In this document: one piece after another, positions 2,472-41,087 of the stretch
How the letters are laid out: every line of letters begins with the position of its first letter
How positions within the stretch are numbered: position 1 is the stretch's first letter
The notes under the pieces: model-generated
What the model was told of the DNA's origin: nothing
The model's database searches: none
The model's input: only the letters and a program-made list of their open reading frames with translations
Translations under genes and position numbers: made by a program
Virus record (IMG/VR): IMGVR_UViG_3300037470_001281
Coordinates: 1-41,087 of that record
DNA: 41,087 nucleotides
Source of the DNA: a virus
Taxonomy: Duplodnaviria > Caudoviricetes
Direction: 5' to 3' (one strand)

Positions 2472-2734
2472 TGGCTGTTCGAGTGTTCAAGACCTTCGTT
2501 CCACGGAGCACCGACGGCTGGACCCCGGATGCAGTCGGCTTATTCCGCGCCGCCAGCGCATCGAAGGCCCGGTATCTGTGCTACCTGTCCGCCCGTGATG
2601 CCGGGTGGCCAGTCCTGTTGACCGACATTCTGGTGCGCCGGGCCGCTGAGTACGACTCCGCCAGCTTCTCCCAAGGCTCGATGCCCAGCTATGCACGATT
2701 TCCCACCCCGGAGGCCCCCCATGCCGCTCCCTAA
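2468..2734 (+). CDS. Hypothetical protein (88 aa)
   Basis: RBS GGAGG, coupled ORF. Confidence 0.65.
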   Translation: MMAVRVFKTFVPRSTDGWTPDAVGLFRAASASKARYLCYLSARDAGWPVLLTDILVRRAAEYDSASFSQGSMPSYARFPTPEAPHAAP

Positions 2735-3071: not shown

Positions 3072-3612
3072 ACAGGCCGCGCCGGTGCCGACAGCCCGGT
3101 TTACGGTGGATGAGGCGCAGGCGGCGGCCGACGAATGGGGCGCGAATTGTGGCCCCGGCGCCCTGGCCGGCGTCCTGGGGCTGACGCTCTCGGAGGTGCG
3201 GTCCCGCCTGGTCGGCTTCGAGGAGAAGGGGCACACCAACCCCACGATGATATACTCGGCGCTGGAACTGCTCGGCGTGAAGTACCGCCGGGTGCGCAAG
3301 CCCACTGAGTGGCCGCGCTTCGGCCTGGTCAGGATTCAATGGGGCGGCCCGTGGATGGCCCCGAAGGTCCCCGGCTTCGTTCGGTACATGCACACCCACT
3401 GGGTCGGCGCGGCGACGGCCGACTCGGGCGCCGTCCAAGTGTTCGACATCAACTGCATTTGCTCGGGTGGCTGGGTCCCCCTCGATGAGTGGAGCTGGGA
3501 GGTCGTGCCTAGGCTCCTGAAGGAAATCGAGTCCAAGGGCGACGGCACGTGGAGCATCGCCGGCGTCGTGGAAGTCACACCCGCCACCGGCGGGAAGGGG
3601 GAGGGGACATGA
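3058..3612 (+). CDS. Papain-fold C39-like cysteine peptidase domain protein
   Basis: NCGPGAL (Cys), THWV (His), VFD (Asp) in C39 order; GTG start with GGAGG. Confidence 0.6.
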   Translation: METVEQAAPVPTARFTVDEAQAAADEWGANCGPGALAGVLGLTLSEVRSRLVGFEEKGHTNPTMIYSALELLGVKYRRVRKPTEWPRFGLVRIQWGGPWMAPKVPGFVRYMHTHWVGAATADSGAVQVFDINCICSGGWVPLDEWSWEVVPRLLKEIESKGDGTWSIAGVVEVTPATGGKGEGT

Positions 3613-31084: not shown

Positions 31085-32023
31085 TCAGGGCTGTCGCACC
31101 CAGGGCCCGCAGCCGCTCGTCTCGAAGCCGACGTCCGTCGGGGCGATGGTGACCACGCGCGGCTCGGCGCCGAACTGATTCGCCACGATGTCGGTCAGCT
31201 CACCACTAAACCCGCGGAGCCGGGCAGCATAGCACGAGGTTCCTGTCCCCGTCGATGACCAGTTTCCGGGGGTGACCTCGGTCGGAACCATGTACACCCC
31301 CTGGGGGAGCGGCGCGGCGGGGTTCGCCCGGACTCCCCCTACCACTCCTATCCAAGGCGCACATCCGCTGGAGCCGAACGCGAGGTCCGTCGGGGCAATC
31401 GCGACAAGGCGGGGCCCCGCGCCGATGTCGTTCGCGATGATCTCCGCGAGCGTGCCACCCGTCCCATTGAGCCTCTCCCAGTAGCAGAATCCGTTCTGAG
31501 ACGTCAGGCTCCGATAGAGCCCGGGCGGCACCTGCGTGCCCACGTAGCGCGTGCCGTTCCCGAAAGTGAACGGGGTCACGGTGATTGCGGCGAAACCGTC
31601 TACCCCCTCACTGGTGGCGGTGACGGTGGCCACGCCGATGGCCACCCCAGTGACCAAGCCACTGCCTGAGACTGTCGCCTGCCCCTGGGGCGCAACGCTC
31701 CAGGTCACGACGCGGCCGACCAAGGGGGCGCCGAGCGCGTCCCTAGGGGTTGCGGTGAGCTGCCCCGACTGCTGCACGGGGACGCTCAGGTTTGCCGGGC
31801 TTACGAGCACCGACGCGACCGGCGCCGGGGGAGGCGGGGGCGGTGGTGGTGGCGGCGGCACCGGCGGTGGAGGCGGTGGAGGCGGTGGTGGCACCGGTGG
31901 AGGCGGAGGAGGAGGAGGGGTTGGTGGAGGCGTTGCTGGGGGCGGAGTCGGAGGCGCCGGGCCAGCGGGCTCGGCCGGGCAACCCATGAGCAGCCAGACT
32001 GAGAGGAGCATCAGGCGAGCCAT
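31085..32023 (-). CDS. Lipoprotein: poly-Pro stalk, Big_2 Ig domain and two GxYxV..PGxY repeats (lysogeny/superinfection-exclusion candidate)
   Basis: GGAGG RBS; lipobox LMGC; PVASVLVSP...QLTATPRD...VTWS...GLVTGVA.G.ATVTATSEG; repeats PGLYR..CYWERL..IIAN and PGNW..CYAARL..IVAN. Confidence 0.85.
   Translation of the reverse strand: MARLMLLSVWLLMGCPAEPAGPAPPTPPPATPPPTPPPPPPPPVPPPPPPPPPPVPPPPPPPPPPPAPVASVLVSPANLSVPVQQSGQLTATPRDALGAPLVGRVVTWSVAPQGQATVSGSGLVTGVAIGVATVTATSEGVDGFAAITVTPFTFGNGTRYVGTQVPPGLYRSLTSQNGFCYWERLNGTGGTLAEIIANDIGAGPRLVAIAPTDLAFGSSGCAPWIGVVGGVRANPAAPLPQGVYMVPTEVTPGNWSSTGTGTSCYAARLRGFSGELTDIVANQFGAEPRVVTIAPTDVGFETSGCGPWVRQP
31829..31960. repeat. GGN triplet low-complexity repeat encoding poly-proline on the minus strand
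   Basis: Repeated GGTGGAGGC-like units. Confidence 0.8.
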
Positions 32024-32144
32024 CGGCACCCCTCCAAGATTGAGCCCACGTTGACGATCAGGCCGCACCTTCCCCGCCCCCTAGCGGCTGTCAGCCGGCC
32101 GCCGTATACTGACTACTTCGGCATCTCTTCGGGAGCGTCAACCC

Positions 32145-32486
32145 ATGGTCCATCTGTATTTCCGGGTGAAGGGGCCGGTCGCCGGCCTCCCAGGCACCAC
32201 CGCGGGACAAGTCCTCTGCATCTACATCGGCGCCGAAGAGAACGCCGCGATTCGAACGCCCTTTCACATCCCGGAGGGGAAACTGTATGGGCTGATCGGC
32301 CATGCACTTGTTGGCGGCACCCTCGACGACATCACTCCGGACCCGAAGCCCCACGCCGTTTCTGAGGCGTTGCGCCAGGCTGTGGGCGCCCCGAACCCAG
32401 TTTATCAACGTCGACTCGGTCCAGCTGAACCTGCTCCTCCCCTGACGTTTCGCCGCTGGCGCCGGGCTCGACTGTCTCTGGTGTAA
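32145..32486 (+). CDS. Possible antisense gene (113 aa) overlapping the repressor 3' end
   Basis: GGGAG RBS, TATACT at 32105-10, globular-looking N-terminal ~80 aa. Confidence 0.45.
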   Translation: MVHLYFRVKGPVAGLPGTTAGQVLCIYIGAEENAAIRTPFHIPEGKLYGLIGHALVGGTLDDITPDPKPHAVSEALRQAVGAPNPVYQRRLGPAEPAPPLTFRRWRRARLSLV

Positions 32487-32832
32487 GCCCCCGTACCGCG
32501 CGGCCGGCGTCTCTAAGTCCTGCCTGATACCCGACCTCATACTCGCGGACCACCGTTCCCGGCTTCACGTCGGGCGCCTCCATCGGTCCATCCTCGGTCA
32601 GGATCCAGTGCGCCGACCACCCGGAGCGCTTCGCCACCCTCGCGATCTCCTGTGACCCTGGCGTCCGCCACTTCTTCGGATCGGATGACATCGCCCTGCT
32701 CACGGTCGCTTGTGAGATGCCAAGCCGTTGCGCTGCAACGGCTTGCTTGATCTTGTGCTTCTTCAGATAAGCCTGGATCACCACGGCCCAGCGCCGCCGG
32801 ATCTCGGCAACCTCAGAGTTGCCTATTGACAC
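32332..32832 (-). CDS. CI-like immunity repressor, XRE HTH
   Basis: IKQAVAAQRLGISQATVSRAM...TPG..IARVA...SAHWILTEDGPM; divergent from early operon; GTG start inferred; no S24 peptidase domain visible. Confidence 0.85.
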   Translation of the reverse strand: MSIGNSEVAEIRRRWAVVIQAYLKKHKIKQAVAAQRLGISQATVSRAMSSDPKKWRTPGSQEIARVAKRSGWSAHWILTEDGPMEAPDVKPGTVVREYEVGYQAGLRDAGRAVRGLTPETVEPGASGETSGEEQVQLDRVDVDKLGSGRPQPGATPQKRRGASGPE

Positions 32833-32854
32833 GGCTTGCCACGGTGCATAACTT
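32826..32854 (+). promoter_or_regulatory. Sigma70 early lytic promoter (PR-like)
   Basis: TTGACA(32826-31), 17 bp, TAACTT(32849-54) in an AT-rich island. Confidence 0.75.
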
Positions 32855-32887
32855 GGCAATGTGAATTGTTGTGTATCACATAACAAT
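32836..32887. promoter_or_regulatory. Candidate operators
   Basis: TTGCCA-N12-TGGCAA (32836-59) over the -10 box; near-palindrome ATTGTTgTGTatcACAtAACAAT (32865-87). Confidence 0.55.
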
Positions 32888-32902
32888 ATAGGACTTAACG
32901 CC

Positions 32903-33100
32903 ATGCCTGACGAGACCGAGGCCCCCACTTCAGCCCCCGAGACGCGGGTGCATGCCGTCCGGTGGGACGTGGCCGAGCTTGAGCGCTTCGAGGCGGCCGC
33001 CAAGGCCCTGAGTGAGCGCGAGCACTTCCCCGTGACCGTGACCGACATCATCCGCCGCGGCGCTCGGCGCGAAGCCGACGCGATCCTCCAGGCCGCCTGA
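32903..33100 (+). CDS. Cro-position regulator, ribbon-helix-helix-like (65 aa)
   Basis: RVHAVRW strand, ELERFEAAAKAL helix, TVTDIIRRGA helix. Confidence 0.7.
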   Translation: MPDETEAPTSAPETRVHAVRWDVAELERFEAAAKALSEREHFPVTVTDIIRRGARREADAILQAA

Positions 33101-34649: not shown

Positions 34650-34865
34650 ATGACCACGGCGACCCTGCTCTCTGCGGATCACCGGAACAAGCTGAAGGCG
34701 CTCCGGGCTGCGGCGGATGATCCCACGGACCCGATCTTCGAGGCCGCCGTGGCGGTGCTGCAGCGGTTCGAGGAGCTGAAGGAGCGGGGATACGACGAGG
34801 AGATCGCGCTCGACAAGGCCTACCGCGAATGCAACCAGACGGTCGGCGACACGGGGGGCGCGTGA
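34650..34865 (+). CDS. Hypothetical protein (71 aa)
   Basis: GAGGG RBS, ATG at 34650. Confidence 0.65.
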   Translation: MTTATLLSADHRNKLKALRAAADDPTDPIFEAAVAVLQRFEELKERGYDEEIALDKAYRECNQTVGDTGGA

Positions 34866-35149
34866 GCGCGGTGACCGCGCCGGTTGCGGGGCCGCTCCTG
34901 GCCGGCGTGCAGCCTCGGCCGGCCTGGCGGATCCGCGCCTTCGTGCCGCGCGCGCGCGGCCGGCCAGGCGGGAGCGGGGCGGCGGTCGCGACCGCCTGCA
35001 TTCGGATCCCGGAGGGGCTGGCCTCGACGCCGGAGGGCGCGATCGCCTTCGCCCGTCAGTCGAAGCGGTTCCGGGAGGCGATCGCCATGTTGCCGCTGAA
35101 CTGTTGGCGGGCGTTTCCCGTGACGGAGCCCGCGCCGCTGGTGTTCTGA
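34862..35149 (+). CDS. Hypothetical protein
   Basis: GTGA coupling. Confidence 0.55.
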   Translation: MSAVTAPVAGPLLAGVQPRPAWRIRAFVPRARGRPGGSGAAVATACIRIPEGLASTPEGAIAFARQSKRFREAIAMLPLNCWRAFPVTEPAPLVF

Positions 35150-35193
35150 GGAGCAGACCGTGTAGGAAGCCCCTCCCCCAGGGGCGATGAGGT

Positions 35194-35288
35194 TCACCAG
35201 TAGCTCAGTCGGTAGAGCGGCCCGTGCCAGGTAGGACAAGCAGCAAGTGGCGCGCGGAGGGTCCCGGGTTCGATGCCCGGCTGGTGCG
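35194..35288 (+). ncRNA. tRNA-like RNA 1 with expanded anticodon arm
   Basis: Acceptor CACCAG/CTGGTG; D arm TAGCTCAGTCGGTAGAGC; T arm CCGGG-TTCGATG-CCCGG; about 9-bp stem plus 18-nt loop in place of the anticodon arm; no encoded CCA. Confidence 0.8.
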
Positions 35289-35359
35289 TGGGTGTGTCGG
35301 GCGAGGATGTAGGCCGTTTGATCAAGCGAAGCGGAGCGGCGAGGGTTCAGCAGGAAGGT

Positions 35360-35458
35360 TCACCAGTGGCGCGATTGGTAGCGCACCCGCAGCCAAGGCC
35401 GCGAGGCCGAGATGCAAGGATGTGCGGGGGGTTCCAGGTTCGAGTCCTGGCTGGTGCG
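35360..35458 (+). ncRNA. tRNA-like RNA 2 with expanded anticodon arm
   Basis: Same acceptor; D arm TGGCGCGATTGGTAGCGC; CCCGCA/TGCGGG stem enclosing 31 nt including GGCC-GCGA-GGCC; T arm CCAGG-TTCGAGT-CCTGG; no encoded CCA. Confidence 0.8.
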
Positions 35459-35571
35459 TGATCGAAACAACGGTGGCGTCGCGGAGTGCTGCTCCTCGTC
35501 AGCTTGGTCGCCGGCGGCTGGTGTCTCCTGCCGGGCGGCGCTGCCCTCACCCTCGGGAGTACTCAGCACCC

Positions 35572-36372
35572 ATGGCCCAGACCGCCTCCACCCTCCACCA
35601 CGAGGAGCGTCTCTGCACCGTCGACGCCCGACGGGCGGCCATGGCCTGGCTGAACGCGTTCCTGGCGAGCGGGCAGGACAAGCAGCGCACGACGCTGTTC
35701 CGCACCCTGTCCCTCGAGTTCCACCCCGAAGGGATCCAGTTCGTGGCCACCAGCGGGATCGCGCTGTTCAGGACCTGGGTGCCGCGGATCGAGCTCCCGG
35801 GTCCGGTGGCGTGGCCGGCCAACACGGAGACGCCGCGGCGGGTGGTGACGGTGATGGACGTGGAGAAGTTCGGGTTGTCGTTCATGAAGACCCTGCACCA
35901 GCTCACCGCCGGCGAGGATCGCCAGGGGGAGCAGATGGCGATCAGCATCGCCCCGATGGATGAGGGGGCGACGCTCTCCCTGGGCGCCGAGTTCACGAAG
36001 GAGCGGGTGGTCATGCGGACCTGTGGCCAGCGCCTCGATCTCCCGGTGATGGATGGCGAGTACCCCAACTGGCGCCGGCTGCAACTGGGCATCGATGCGC
36101 GGGAACGGGTCGAGGGGATGATCCTCGCGCCGGCGCTCATGGGGGCCGTGGGCAAGCTGCTCGGCGTCTCGGCCGTGCGCCTGGTCTTCCACGGCAAGGA
36201 GAAGCAGGTCGGCTTCGAGGCCGCGGAATCGCCGGGAGGCCTGGCGGTGGTGCGCGGAGTCATGATGCCGATGCGCAAGACCGGCCAGGACAGCGCCGAT
36301 GCGGCTGGCGAGAAGCCGGCGAAGAAGAAGGACCCGAAGGCAGAGCGCCCCGGGCACCTGAAGTTGACCTGA
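35572..36372 (+). CDS. Truncated DNA polymerase III beta-clamp-like protein
   Basis: ASGQD..RTTL, IQFVATSG, DGEYPNWRR and GVMMPMR resemble DnaN domains 2-3. Confidence 0.7.
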   Translation: MAQTASTLHHEERLCTVDARRAAMAWLNAFLASGQDKQRTTLFRTLSLEFHPEGIQFVATSGIALFRTWVPRIELPGPVAWPANTETPRRVVTVMDVEKFGLSFMKTLHQLTAGEDRQGEQMAISIAPMDEGATLSLGAEFTKERVVMRTCGQRLDLPVMDGEYPNWRRLQLGIDARERVEGMILAPALMGAVGKLLGVSAVRLVFHGKEKQVGFEAAESPGGLAVVRGVMMPMRKTGQDSADAAGEKPAKKKDPKAERPGHLKLT

Positions 36373-36404: not shown

Positions 36405-36749
36405 ATGACTTCCGTTGCCGCAACACCGGAACCGATCACGAAGGCGGCGATCGACGCGATCGTCGAACTCAGCCTGTCCGACGAAGCGATTGACCTGCTG
36501 AAGTCCGTCCGCACCGGCGCGGACGTCTGGGAACGGTGGGCCGCGAAGGACTGTCGCCACCTGGAGACCCTCGGCCTCGTCCGCATCGTCAAAGCGAGGA
36601 GCGCGCCGAAGGACGGGGCCATGCGCCAGCCGTATTTCGGCTGCGTGGCCACCGCGAGAGGTAAGGCGGTCCTGCAGAGAGGACTCAGGTACCGCCGCCT
36701 CCGCCGGGAGAAGGCATTCGCGGATGCGAGCCGGGGGGTTGCCCGATGA
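36405..36749 (+). CDS. Hypothetical protein (possible winged helix)
   Basis: LETLGLVRI ... TARGKAVL pattern. Confidence 0.55.
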   Translation: MTSVAATPEPITKAAIDAIVELSLSDEAIDLLKSVRTGADVWERWAAKDCRHLETLGLVRIVKARSAPKDGAMRQPYFGCVATARGKAVLQRGLRYRRLRREKAFADASRGVAR

Positions 36750-39564: not shown

Positions 39565-39948
39565 ATGAGTGAGGGGGCAGGGAAGGGGACGACGGCCCGC
39601 TATCTGGCGGACGTGCTGGCGGACTTCGCCGAGCTCGGCCAGTACGCGACCCCGGAGGTGCGGCAGGCGCTCGGCGACCTGATCGCCGAGGTGCGTTGCT
39701 GCGGGCCGGAATTCCTGTTCTGGCACGACCTGCCCGGGGCGGTCCTGCTGAGCGGCAAGCCGCCCGGCTACTTCCGGAGCCGGTTCAAGGGCTGGCAGGC
39801 CCGGGGGCTCGCGCGGAGCAGCCGGCGGGGCCACCACGAGTTCCTCGAGTGCGTCATCCCGAAGCAGGAGGCGATCGCCGACCTGGTGCGGGACGCCCAG
39901 GAGACCGCCGACGCCGACGCGAGGGACCGGAGGGCGGCCGCGGCATGA
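39565..39948 (+). CDS. Hypothetical protein (possible recombination directionality factor)
   Basis: Coupled by ATGA to the integrase; possible winged-helix-like segment. Confidence 0.55.
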   Translation: MSEGAGKGTTARYLADVLADFAELGQYATPEVRQALGDLIAEVRCCGPEFLFWHDLPGAVLLSGKPPGYFRSRFKGWQARGLARSSRRGHHEFLECVIPKQEAIADLVRDAQETADADARDRRAAAA

Positions 39949-41087
39949 CCCCCAAGCGGACAATCGTCAAGGAGTTCGGGTTGCGGAACCACCGGCGCGT
40001 GCTGGTGGTCAAGTACGCCACCGGCACGATCCAGGTGGAGCGCTACGTCGACGCGGGGCGGCCGCGGCGGAAGAACTTCCCCACGCTCGCGGGGGCGGTG
40101 GCGTGGGCGCGGGCCTGGTACGACGCCGGCGAGACCCATGGGGCCGACCTCACTCTGCGCCAGCTCTTCGACCGGTTCTTCGGCAGCGTCCCCAGCCAGC
40201 GGAAGCACCGGGGCTCCACCATCCTCAACGCCCAAGCGCACCGTCGGCGCCTGGAGCAGGTGCTGGGCCCCGACTTCCGGGTGAACCGCCTCACCCTGGC
40301 CCACCTCGACGGGGCCTGGCAGACCCTTCTCGACGCCGGCGTGGCTCCCAACCAGGTGGCGGCCAAGCTCCGCCTCCTGAAGCGGGTGCTCGCCTGGGGG
40401 CACAGCCGTGAGCTGGTGACCCACTCGAAGGCCGCGGGGTGGGACGTGCCGGAGGGCAAGGCGCTGGTGATCGCGGAGTACTCGGCGGAGGAGGCAGGGA
40501 AGATCCTGGCGCAGTGGGACTACCAGCAGGACGGCTGGCAGTGGCGGCCCTGGGCGGTGGCGATGATCGCCTCCAGTCACGGCTTCCGGTTGAACGCGAT
40601 CCTGCATCTGCGCTGGGAGGATGTCGACCTGGCGGCGGGCACGATCCGCCTGCGGGCGGAGACGGACAAGACGAAGCGCGACTGGGACCGGCCCCTCACC
40701 TGGGAGGCCCTGAGCGCGCTGCGGACGGCACGCTACCATGCGGACCGGCTGGACAAGGAGTCGCCCTGGGTCTTCTACGGCAAGGGCGATCGACCCTACA
40801 CGCGCTCGGCGGCCCTGGCGGCGCTGGTGAAGGCGGAGGCCAAGGCCGAGGTGCCCCACCTCCGGTATCGCGGGTTCCATGGGTTCCGGCGTGGGGTGGT
40901 GAACGATGTCCGCCAGCGGACGGGGGATGCGGCGCTGGCGCTGCTGTGGGTCGGAGATCGGGACATTCGGCAGGCGAAGAGCTACGTGCGGGAGCGTCCG
41001 GCGGAGATGGCGGCGATCGCCGACCATACCGGGATCGTACCACCAACAAAAACCCCGCGTGGCGGGGTCCGGGGAGGTCAGGATTGA
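39945..41087 (+). CDS. int: Tyrosine recombinase (phage integrase)
   Basis: HGFRLNAILHLRWEDVDL (R), DKT (K), FHGFRR (HxxR), VGD...KSY (Y). Confidence 0.93.
   Translation: MTPKRTIVKEFGLRNHRRVLVVKYATGTIQVERYVDAGRPRRKNFPTLAGAVAWARAWYDAGETHGADLTLRQLFDRFFGSVPSQRKHRGSTILNAQAHRRRLEQVLGPDFRVNRLTLAHLDGAWQTLLDAGVAPNQVAAKLRLLKRVLAWGHSRELVTHSKAAGWDVPEGKALVIAEYSAEEAGKILAQWDYQQDGWQWRPWAVAMIASSHGFRLNAILHLRWEDVDLAAGTIRLRAETDKTKRDWDRPLTWEALSALRTARYHADRLDKESPWVFYGKGDRPYTRSAALAALVKAEAKAEVPHLRYRGFHGFRRGVVNDVRQRTGDAALALLWVGDRDIRQAKSYVRERPAEMAAIADHTGIVPPTKTPRGGVRGGQD
41048..41068 (-). terminator. Minus-strand intrinsic terminator within the integrase 3' end
   Basis: ACCCCGC-GTG-GCGGGGT hairpin with an A-run on its left side (U-run on the minus strand). 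Confidence 0.55.

What the first reader, a model, noticed from the sequence alone, without database searches (positions are those of the whole stretch)
35190..35460. Tandem pair of tRNA-mimic RNAs with shared acceptor stems and replaced anticodon arms
Seen: two cloverleafs (35194-35288, 35360-35458) share identical 12-nt flanks (AGGTTCACCAGT and GGCTGGTGCGTG). Their D and T stems differ in sequence yet stay fully paired (GCTC/GAGC vs GCGC/GCGC; CCGGG/CCCGG vs CCAGG/CCTGG), i.e. compensatory change. The anticodon loop is replaced by 18-nt and 31-nt purine-rich inserts, the second with a GNRA hairpin. Counting from the D arm, both have G33 then CCA at 34-36, and both inserts contain GCAAG. Both have a U1-C72 mismatch and no encoded CCA. 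Inference: covariation argues against decayed tRNAs and for a selected non-decoding scaffold, processable by tRNA enzymes, that displays a loop. Possible roles: decoy for anticodon nucleases or tRNA-targeting defences, synthetase/ribosome modulator, or Trp-tRNA with a short unusual intron.
Basis: partly seen in the sequence, partly recalled or inferred. Interest (0 to 1): 0.82.

Follow-up and report, generated by a model that had tools for sequence, protein, structure and literature searches.

The report
Anticodon-less tRNA mimics in prophage operon
A temperate phage carries two tRNA-shaped elements whose codon-reading arm is replaced by unrelated sequence while the rest of the tRNA shape is kept in two related phages; they likely serve as cutting signals for the host's tRNA-trimming enzymes in the phage's early transcript and would release small non-decoding RNAs.

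Summary
Two cloverleafs lie at 35194-35288 and 35360-35458; a strict descriptor finds only these two in the window and none in 200 simulated windows. No Rfam family matches. The window is a lambda-like provirus and the pair sits in its early operon. Two relatives carry one copy at the same spot: a soil contig and a prophage in Gemmatimonadota genome G025. They keep all 15 acceptor, D and T pairs, the unusual U1-C72 mismatch, a C-rich 5' hairpin and a 3' domain, while neighbouring genes are 61-64% identical and the arm differs entirely in G025. What is kept is what RNase P, RNase Z and the CCA-adding enzyme read. Most likely role: a tRNA-like processing signal that cuts the early transcript and releases an uncharged scaffold RNA (0.45). 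Rivals: decoy, ribosome-site regulator. Only three genomes, no expression data. New variant of a known kind; interest 0.5.

The parts
35169..35193 (+). 5' leader: 6-bp hairpin with C-rich loop (motif CTCCCCC) followed by CGATGAGG
   Evidence: Identical over 35146-35191 in the soil relative. Hairpin and both motifs kept in G025 with changed stem pairs.
35194..35288 (+). tRNA-like body 1 (95 nt): U1-C72 mismatch, 6 acceptor pairs, 4-bp D stem, 5-bp T stem, G73, irregular enlarged arm
   Evidence: First 26 nt identical to a phage tRNA-Asn (that locus was found with a pattern taken from this element). Absent from the soil relative.
35219..35263 (+). Replaced anticodon arm and variable region of body 1 (45 nt; 18-nt purine-rich loop 35230-35247)
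   Evidence: canonical register pairs 2 of 5.
35289..35359 (+). 71-nt spacer, present or absent together with body 1 as a 165-nt block; contains GCGAAGCGG, also found upstream of the G025 body
   Evidence: Joint 35191 to 35357 in run X3.
35360..35458 (+). tRNA-like body 2 (99 nt): same acceptor stem, other D and T stems, tertiary partners 9-12-23, 15-48 and 26-44 changed together; G14 instead of A14
   Evidence: The soil relative has this body with 3 substitutions and 1 insertion.
35385..35433 (+). Replaced anticodon arm and variable region of body 2 (49 nt): 6-bp stem, 31-nt loop, GNRA hairpin 35397-35408
   Evidence: hairpin unchanged in the soil relative.
35473..35544 (+). Conserved 3' domain: 10-bp closing stem, invariant GCTTGGTCGCC (35502-35512), C-rich anti-Shine-Dalgarno-like stretch 35524-35529; inner fold uncertain
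   Evidence: 53 of 73 columns identical with G025 and closing stem 10 of 10 pairs in both. Of 6 substitutions in the soil relative's 3' region none breaks a predicted pair. The window copy is not more stable than shuffles (z +1.11).
34650..35149 (+). Two small upstream genes (71 and 95 aa) that also precede the G025 element
   Evidence: 47% and 36% protein identity; tblastn.
35572..36372 (+). Downstream gene with a sliding-clamp (DnaN-like) fold; not found in the 40 kb around the G025 element
   Evidence: Model pLDDT 81; Foldseek E 1.5e-7 to clamps; no tblastn match.
36405..36749 (+). 114-aa gene whose homologue directly follows the element in G025
   Evidence: 44% identity.
32332..33051 (-). 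Divergent repressor gene marking the start of the early operon
   Evidence: PHROG repressor matches, best E 3e-8.
39696..41087 (+). Integrase at the end of the same run of genes
   Evidence: G025 has the same order: repressor, element, integrase.

Best explanation
These are two tRNA-derived elements that keep the acceptor, D and T arms but have no working anticodon arm, and they likely act as tRNA-like processing signals: host RNase P and RNase Z would cut them out of the phage early transcript, releasing uncharged 95-99 nt scaffold RNAs and giving the downstream message (clamp-like gene, ParB, integrase) a new structured 5' end. Shown: the fold, its conservation in two related phages, free exchange of the arm, the conserved U1-C72 mismatch, the position between repressor and integrase, and RNase P and RNase Z genes in the likely host phylum. 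Inferred: transcription from the early promoter, the two cuts, CCA addition, lack of aminoacylation, and any effect on downstream genes. The tandem pair is one module (5' hairpin, body, 3' domain) with an extra 165-nt body-plus-spacer block that a close relative lacks.
For: Body 49 of 56 identical to G025 with all 7 differences unpaired, against 61-64% for neighbouring genes. 15 of 15 pairs intact in all three bodies. Elbow and core landmarks kept: U8, G18-G19, T-loop, 15-48, 9-12-23, and 26-44 in two of three. The arm is 34, 45 or 49 nt and unrelated between G025 and the window. U1-C72 is in 4 of 4 bodies and in 0 of 117 ordinary-length cloverleafs held. Same operon position in G025. RNase Z and RNase P RNA over cut-off in 5 of 5 Gemmatimonadota genomes tested. 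Host-type tRNA genes lack CCA (1 of 95), so the RNase Z route is the normal one. Precedents: t-elements (PMC1920247, abstract) and RNase P-processed phage C4 RNA (PMC5320573, passages). That these enzymes read the top half and elbow and ignore the anticodon arm is established knowledge, recalled.
Against: No RNA data. Only three genomes, one of them a 520-nt contig at depth 4.65. The same conservation pattern fits a decoy equally well. Body 2 has G14 where 48 of 48 ordinary tRNAs have A14, and body 1 has G26-G44 and an irregular stem. A pure cutting signal does not need a long arm or a second copy. Four phages or contigs with the clamp-like gene lack the element nearby, and the gene that follows it differs between the window and G025, so no particular gene depends on it. 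The host is inferred from relatives, not observed.
Confidence: 0.45

Rival explanations
1. The released RNA is itself the product: an uncharged tRNA look-alike that soaks up host proteins which bind the tRNA acceptor end or elbow (tRNA-targeting toxins or defence enzymes, uncharged-tRNA sensors).
For: Complete top half and elbow kept, with a conserved 1-72 mismatch. A second copy gained or lost as a block suggests dosage or diversity matters. Early-operon position. A similar competitive-inhibitor role was proposed, untested, for YrlA (PMC7790460, passage).
Against: The anticodon loop, which anticodon nucleases read, is the part not conserved. No tRNA repair or Ro60 gene among 73 window proteins scanned. 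The conserved flanks are not explained.
Confidence: 0.2
2. A C4/CI-like regulator: the processed module controls translation or elongation by base pairing, using the C-rich loops (5' hairpin loop, 3' domain) against ribosome-binding sites, or the body's CCA end against the invariant UGGU of the 3' domain.
For: Flanks are conserved beyond the neighbouring genes (53 of 73). CTCCCCC and GCTTGGTCGCC are invariant in three genomes. The anti-Shine-Dalgarno hexamer CCTCCT is exact in G025 and the soil relative and 5 of 6 in the window. C4 loops pair at ribosome-binding sites (PMC5320573, passage).
Against: None of the three arm loops has a partner on the phage's + strand transcripts clearly better than 12 shuffles each. 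The leader-to-3'-domain duplex is not significant (P 0.40 and 0.13). T-box discriminator features fail, and that fold costs 10 and 20 kcal/mol. C-runs are common at 70% G+C.
Confidence: 0.17
3. Relics of once-functional phage tRNA genes, inactivated by insertions in the anticodon loop and now drifting.
For: All parts resemble ordinary tRNA parts (26 of 26 to a phage tRNA-Asn 5' end; 27 of 30 to a tRNA-Arg 3' end). G025 reads like a tRNA-Lys with an insert after the anticodon. Rare: one carrier among the bacterial genomes searched.
Against: No broken stem pair across phages whose genes are 61-64% identical, and the shared odd U1-C72 is retained. Drift would hit the stems; three different arms would need separate insertions.
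Confidence: 0.09
4. A sponge for the RNA-binding regulator CsrA, using GGA motifs in the arms and spacer.
For: AGGA occurs 6 times in 35146-35571 against 2.1 in shuffles (P 0.008), and a CsrB-type motif (consensus recalled) twice (P 0.02). G025 encodes CsrA (1 of 5 genomes).
Against: The G025 module has 0 AGGA and 0 CsrB-type motifs; GGA alone is not enriched in either module.
Confidence: 0.05
5. Functional tRNAs (Trp) interrupted by a short intron.
For: ARAGORN can draw copy 2 as tRNA-Trp with a 26-nt intron; CCA at 34-36 in both window copies.
Against: No U33 in any body, CTT at 34-36 in G025, copy 1 drawn as Ala with another junction, no bulge-helix-bulge. 21-26 nt is far too short for a self-splicing intron (established knowledge).
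Confidence: 0.03

Closest known systems
t-elements of plant mitochondria (Forner et al. 2007, PMC1920247; abstract read) and mascRNA/menRNA (Rfam RF01684)
   Same: tRNA-like structure inside a longer transcript, proposed as a cis signal for RNase P and RNase Z; no decoding. RF01684 gave a weak match to the top half of copy 2 (16.6 bits, gathering 42.5).
   Different: Here in a bacteriophage early operon, with a full D arm and elbow, an enlarged exchangeable arm, a conserved U1-C72 mismatch and conserved flanking domains; processing not shown.
C4 antisense RNA of phages P1 and P7 (Rfam C4; PMC5320573, passages)
   Same: Small structured RNA cut by host RNase P from a temperate-phage transcript, with variable exposed loops.
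   Different: C4 is not a tRNA homologue and has known complementary targets; no Rfam match here and no arm target found.
Bacterial and phage Y RNA YrlA (PMC7790460, passages)
   Same: Non-coding RNA with a tRNA-like domain; a decoy role has been proposed.
   Different: YrlA lies beside Ro60/Rsr and its ends are not in the acceptor stem (recalled); no Rfam match and no Ro60 gene in the window.
Irregular tRNA polycistrons and allo-tRNAs (Mukai et al. 2017, PMC5389517, passages); B. cereus tRNA-Other (PMC3399842, search listing)
   Same: tRNA-derived genes from soil bacteria that appear not to translate.
   Different: Those have 8/4 or 9/3 stems, an extra loop near the D arm, or normal anticodon loops; these are 7/5 with the anticodon arm replaced.
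Ordinary phage tRNA-Asn(GUU) and tRNA-Lys(CUU) with the same acceptor core (loci L002-L008, L013)
   Same: Same six acceptor pairs and D arm; likely ancestors.
   Different: They pair 1-72 and have a 7-nt anticodon loop with U33.

Membership tests
Canonical tRNA (RF00005) | 7/5 acceptor and T stems, D arm, T-loop and core tertiary partners | tested here: met
   15 of 15 pairs apart from 1-72; 15-48 and 9-12-23 canonical; G14 in copy 2 and G26-G44 in copy 1 depart
Canonical tRNA (RF00005) | 5-bp anticodon stem with a 7-nt loop and U33 | tested here: not met
   Loops of 16-31 nt, no U33; no RF00005 match
Canonical tRNA (RF00005) | Aminoacylation and use in translation | not testable with these tools
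   Needs acid gels or charging assays
Intron-containing tRNA | Removing the insert leaves a canonical anticodon loop at a shared junction | tested here: not met
   Junctions 34/35 and 37/38 with different identities, no U33
Intron-containing tRNA | Bulge-helix-bulge motif or self-splicing intron core | tested here: not met
   0 placements in 3 arms; no Rfam intron match
t-element / tRNA-like processing signal | tRNA-like top half embedded in a polycistronic transcript unit | tested here: met
   Intergenic, same strand as the early genes, in the window and G025
t-element / tRNA-like processing signal | RNA ends map to the element's 5' and 3' borders through RNase P and RNase Z | not testable with these tools
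   Enzymes present in 5 of 5 genomes of the likely host phylum; cleavage needs RNA data
C4 / CI antisense RNAs | Family structure (Rfam model) | tested here: not met
   No match at E up to 10
C4 / CI antisense RNAs | Loops complementary to targets in the same operon | tested here: not met
   Best duplexes at shuffle level for 3 of 3 arms on 11-12 kb of + strand; late genes and host genes not searched this way
Y RNA (YrlA) | Rfam model match and an adjacent Ro60/Rsr gene | tested here: not met
T-box riboswitch | 7-nt bulge UGGN-ACC between helices A1 and A2, Stem III flanked by RRRxG and AA, Stem I | tested here: not met
   UGGU present, but followed by CGCC in a 9-nt stretch; no flanking AA; the A1 fold costs 10 and 20 kcal/mol (features from PMC7583486); no Rfam match
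tmRNA | G3-U70 pair, unpaired D region, tag reading frame | tested here: not met
   A3-U70 and a paired D stem; ARAGORN finds no tmRNA
VIPR locus | GGY/NN repeat array next to a vipr gene | tested here: not met
   At most 3 of 10 steps near the element; downstream protein has a clamp fold
CsrB-type sponge | Many conserved GGA motifs in loops | tested here: inconclusive
   Enriched in the window, not in G025

The most novel reading that the evidence does not exclude
A natural tRNA-scaffold display cassette: the phage makes an unchargeable tRNA body (locked by U1-C72) whose anticodon arm is a swappable payload, collects bodies with different payloads in tandem by recombination at the shared acceptor ends, and couples the released RNA back to its own operon through the invariant 3' domain (CCA-end capture by UGGU, or C-rich anti-Shine-Dalgarno loops). 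That would be a diversifying, array-forming small-RNA system built on tRNA processing.
Probability: 0.12. Interest if true: 0.8.

Novelty: new variant of a known kind. Interest (0 to 1): 0.5.

Why it matters
If these elements are processed, temperate phages use anticodon-less tRNA bodies as RNase P/RNase Z handles to cut and reshape early transcripts and to make stable small RNAs. Standard annotation misses them (no Rfam or default ARAGORN call). The natural contrast here (constant body and 1-72 mismatch, three different arms, one or two copies) gives a direct design for separating 'cutting signal' from 'decoy' from 'displayed loop', which bears on the open question of why phages carry tRNA-like genes. 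It is not unique: earlier unchecked notes of this scan describe similar elements in unrelated phages, which lowers surprise but points to a wide, unannotated class.

Tried and rejected
Homologue searches that found nothing further. Metagenome contigs: 59 matches, none a cloverleaf. Cultured phages: 45 records, best coverage 12%. Genomes: searches (50 of 401 matched; only G025 held the element; of the next 29 loci opened, 27 held ordinary tRNAs and 2 none; the other matches were not opened; only 2 candidates per genome were scored; 88 of 401, control level; 3 of 151; 5 of 151), whose weak hits have no tRNA beside them; 2 of 401; 20 of 401; 1 weak hit in 3 virus records. The samples overlap and are drawn from larger groups, so this is 'not found in those searched'. 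A descriptor scan of all 297 loci held found no other member. No RNA holder listed; runs X1 and X2 may be the window's source and were not counted; run X4 did not cover the element. Antisense target in the phage: shuffle level. The 14-of-15 sense match of loop 1 to 35672-35686: P 0.017 for the loop, 0.25 for the arm, one of six tests, not seen for the other arms; treated as likely chance. Leader pairing with the 3' domain: not significant. HDV-like and hammerhead ribozyme readings of the flanks: considered by eye against recalled consensus, key bases not kept in the relatives, no Rfam match. T-box, VIPR, CsrA: see membership tests. The ARAGORN call at 3127-3217 lies inside an ORF and fails the descriptor. 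The 62-aa ORF 35273-35461 has no family match and its start codon is absent in G025. Literature: ten searches listed no paper describing such an element in phages. Two 2026 preprints had no occurrence of the tRNA terms tried; their supplements are closed and could bear on novelty. The library lacks most subscription papers.

Full report
Context. The window is a 41,087-base IMG/VR provirus record of about 70% G+C. It has lambda-like head and tail genes, a repressor on the minus strand at 32332-33051, and a plus-strand run of small early genes ending in a ParB-like gene and an integrase. The finding lies between genes in that run (34862-35149 and 35572-36372). The host is not given. A homologue of the downstream protein lies in a Gemmatimonadaceae genome and the element's homologue lies in a genome of that phylum, so Gemmatimonadota is inferred.

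The observation. A strict descriptor (six acceptor pairs, U8-R9, four D pairs with GG in the loop, five T pairs around TTCRA) hits only 35194 and 35360, and 0 times in 200 Markov copies of the window. ARAGORN misses both at default settings and passes only these two when inserts are allowed. Rfam gives no match at gathering score, three weak matches at E up to 10, none a tRNA, and none for the tRNA family alone. Folding energies do not beat shuffles. For copy 1 the cloverleaf-constrained fold equals the minimum; for copy 2 and G025 it is within 2 kcal/mol.

Relatives. (1) A soil-metagenome contig of 520 nt at depth 4.65 (run X3) joins 35191 to 35357, so it has the leader, one body of the copy-2 type and the 3' region. 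The 46 nt before the joint are identical, while the 275-nt piece that includes the upstream gene has 24 other letters. The body has G33 to C, one change in the loop, one inserted base, and G73 to A. (2) Genome G025 has one 84-nt body with the same flanks. It lies after homologues of the two upstream genes (47% and 36% identical), before a homologue of the 114-aa gene (44%), and between a divergent repressor and an integrase. No further member was found; the searches and their limits are listed under Tried and rejected. All comparative claims therefore rest on four bodies in three genomes.

What is kept. Copy 1 and G025 differ at 7 of 56 body positions, all unpaired (P=0.003), while three neighbouring genes are 61-64% identical. 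All 15 acceptor, D and T pairs form in the three bodies aligned. Copy 2 changes one D pair and one T pair on both sides, and changes the tertiary partners 9-12-23, 15-48 and 26-44 to combinations that occur among 48 ordinary tRNAs from the fetched loci. It also has G14, where 48 of 48 have A. Two covarying pairs in three sequences are not significant (61 of 500 shuffles). They may come from different parent tRNAs: copy 1's first 26 nt equal a phage tRNA-Asn and copy 2's last 30 nt match tRNA-Arg(UCU) at 27 (134 tRNAs compared, from loci found with queries taken from this element). U1-C72 is in all four bodies and in 0 of 117 ordinary-length cloverleafs. The flanks are also kept: a C-rich hairpin before the body, and a 3' domain with a 10-bp closing stem, 53 of 73 columns identical. 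Its inner fold is unsettled, because G025 prefers a long hairpin and the window copy is less stable than shuffles.

What is not kept. The D-to-T region is 45, 49 or 34 nt against 23. Position 33 is G, G, C and C, never U. Positions 34-36 are CCA in the window and CTT in G025. GCAAG is absent from G025, and no arm has bulge-helix-bulge geometry. Base 73 is G or A. Lack of encoded CCA is the norm in the likely host phylum (1 of 95).

Mechanism. The conserved parts are those that RNase P, RNase Z and the CCA-adding enzyme read; the free part is the one that ribosomes and most synthetases read (established knowledge, recalled). RNase Z and RNase P RNA pass their cut-offs in 5 of 5 genomes tested, G025 included. 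I therefore read the module as a processing signal that would cut the early transcript, release an uncharged tRNA-shaped RNA and leave the downstream message with the 3' domain at its 5' end (0.45). The steps from transcription onward are inferred. A decoy role for the released RNA (0.2) fits the same conservation and explains the second copy better, though it points to acceptor-end or elbow binders rather than anticodon nucleases. A base-pairing regulator (0.17) would explain the invariant flanks. Against it, the arms have no partner above shuffle level on 11-12 kb of each phage's early-side + strand, the leader does not pair with the 3' domain beyond chance, and T-box features fail. Drifting relic 0.09; CsrA sponge 0.05 (motifs enriched only in the window; CsrA in 1 of 5 genomes); intron-containing tRNA 0.03.

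Comparison with what is known. It works like the t-elements of plant mitochondria (PMC1920247, abstract and outline) and shares RNase P processing in a temperate phage with C4 RNA (PMC5320573, passages). It is not a member of C4, Y RNA, tmRNA, T-box or VIPR by the features tested. Irregular non-translating tRNAs from soil bacteria are described (PMC5389517, passages; PMC7609411, passages) but with other architectures. PMC7790460 (passages) proposes a decoy role for YrlA. PMC11090510 and PMC7824862 (passages) held nothing on such elements. PMC7583486 (passages) supplied the T-box criteria. Two preprints (10.64898/2026.10.21.760802 and 10.64898/2026.04.26.720920) were only term-searched and had no occurrences; their supplements are closed. 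Ten searches listed no description of this element, within a library that lacks most subscription papers. Earlier notes of this scan describe anticodon-less tRNA look-alikes in early operons of unrelated phages. They are unchecked leads, share no sequence with this element, and made me rate it as one case of a wider class; they are not support for the mechanism.

Verdict. A real, conserved, unannotated tRNA-derived module, here in tandem; non-decoding with high confidence; function inferred. New variant of a known kind, interest 0.5. The boldest reading not excluded, a swappable-payload tRNA scaffold that forms arrays and feeds back on its own operon, has probability 0.12 and would deserve 0.8.

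Noticed in passing
L287 (G257:C2:512238-512320, minus strand): An unrelated tRNA-shaped element with a 54-nt D-to-T region and a branched arm, about 100 nt upstream of a type I-G CRISPR cas7 (Csb1) gene.
   Followed up: partly
L274 (G008:C80, around 2570-2660, minus strand): tRNA-like gene with a 5-nt anticodon loop and a long variable arm, followed by a second T-loop-bearing stretch.
   Followed up: no
L280 (G057:C5:183080-183157): tRNA-Val gene with a 26-nt internal tandem duplication of the anticodon and variable region; may be an assembly error.
   Followed up: no
window 35572-36372: Phage protein without a family match at E 0.001 whose model has a sliding-clamp fold but only 266 aa; 35 homologues found.
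   Followed up: partly
window 35230-35244 and 35672-35686: Loop of body 1 matches the sense strand of the downstream gene at 14 of 15 positions; borderline against shuffles.
   Followed up: yes
window 35146-35571: AGGA motifs are enriched (6 against 2.1) here but not in G025.
   Followed up: yes
window 35224-36372 and L026 1036-1851 (minus): In both phages the frame of the downstream gene stays open through the element, but the start codons are not shared; plausible by chance at 70% G+C.
   Followed up: no
window 31085-32068 (minus): Ig-like (Big_2) protein with a proline-rich linker beside the repressor, a likely lysogenic-conversion gene.
   Followed up: no
whole window: Contigs of 43.4 kb in two runs hold the tested 2.1-kb stretch without differences, so the 41-kb provirus record may be incomplete.
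   Followed up: no
L027-L055: Many Gemmatimonadota genomes carry a conserved cluster of 8-13 tRNA genes without encoded CCA.
   Followed up: no
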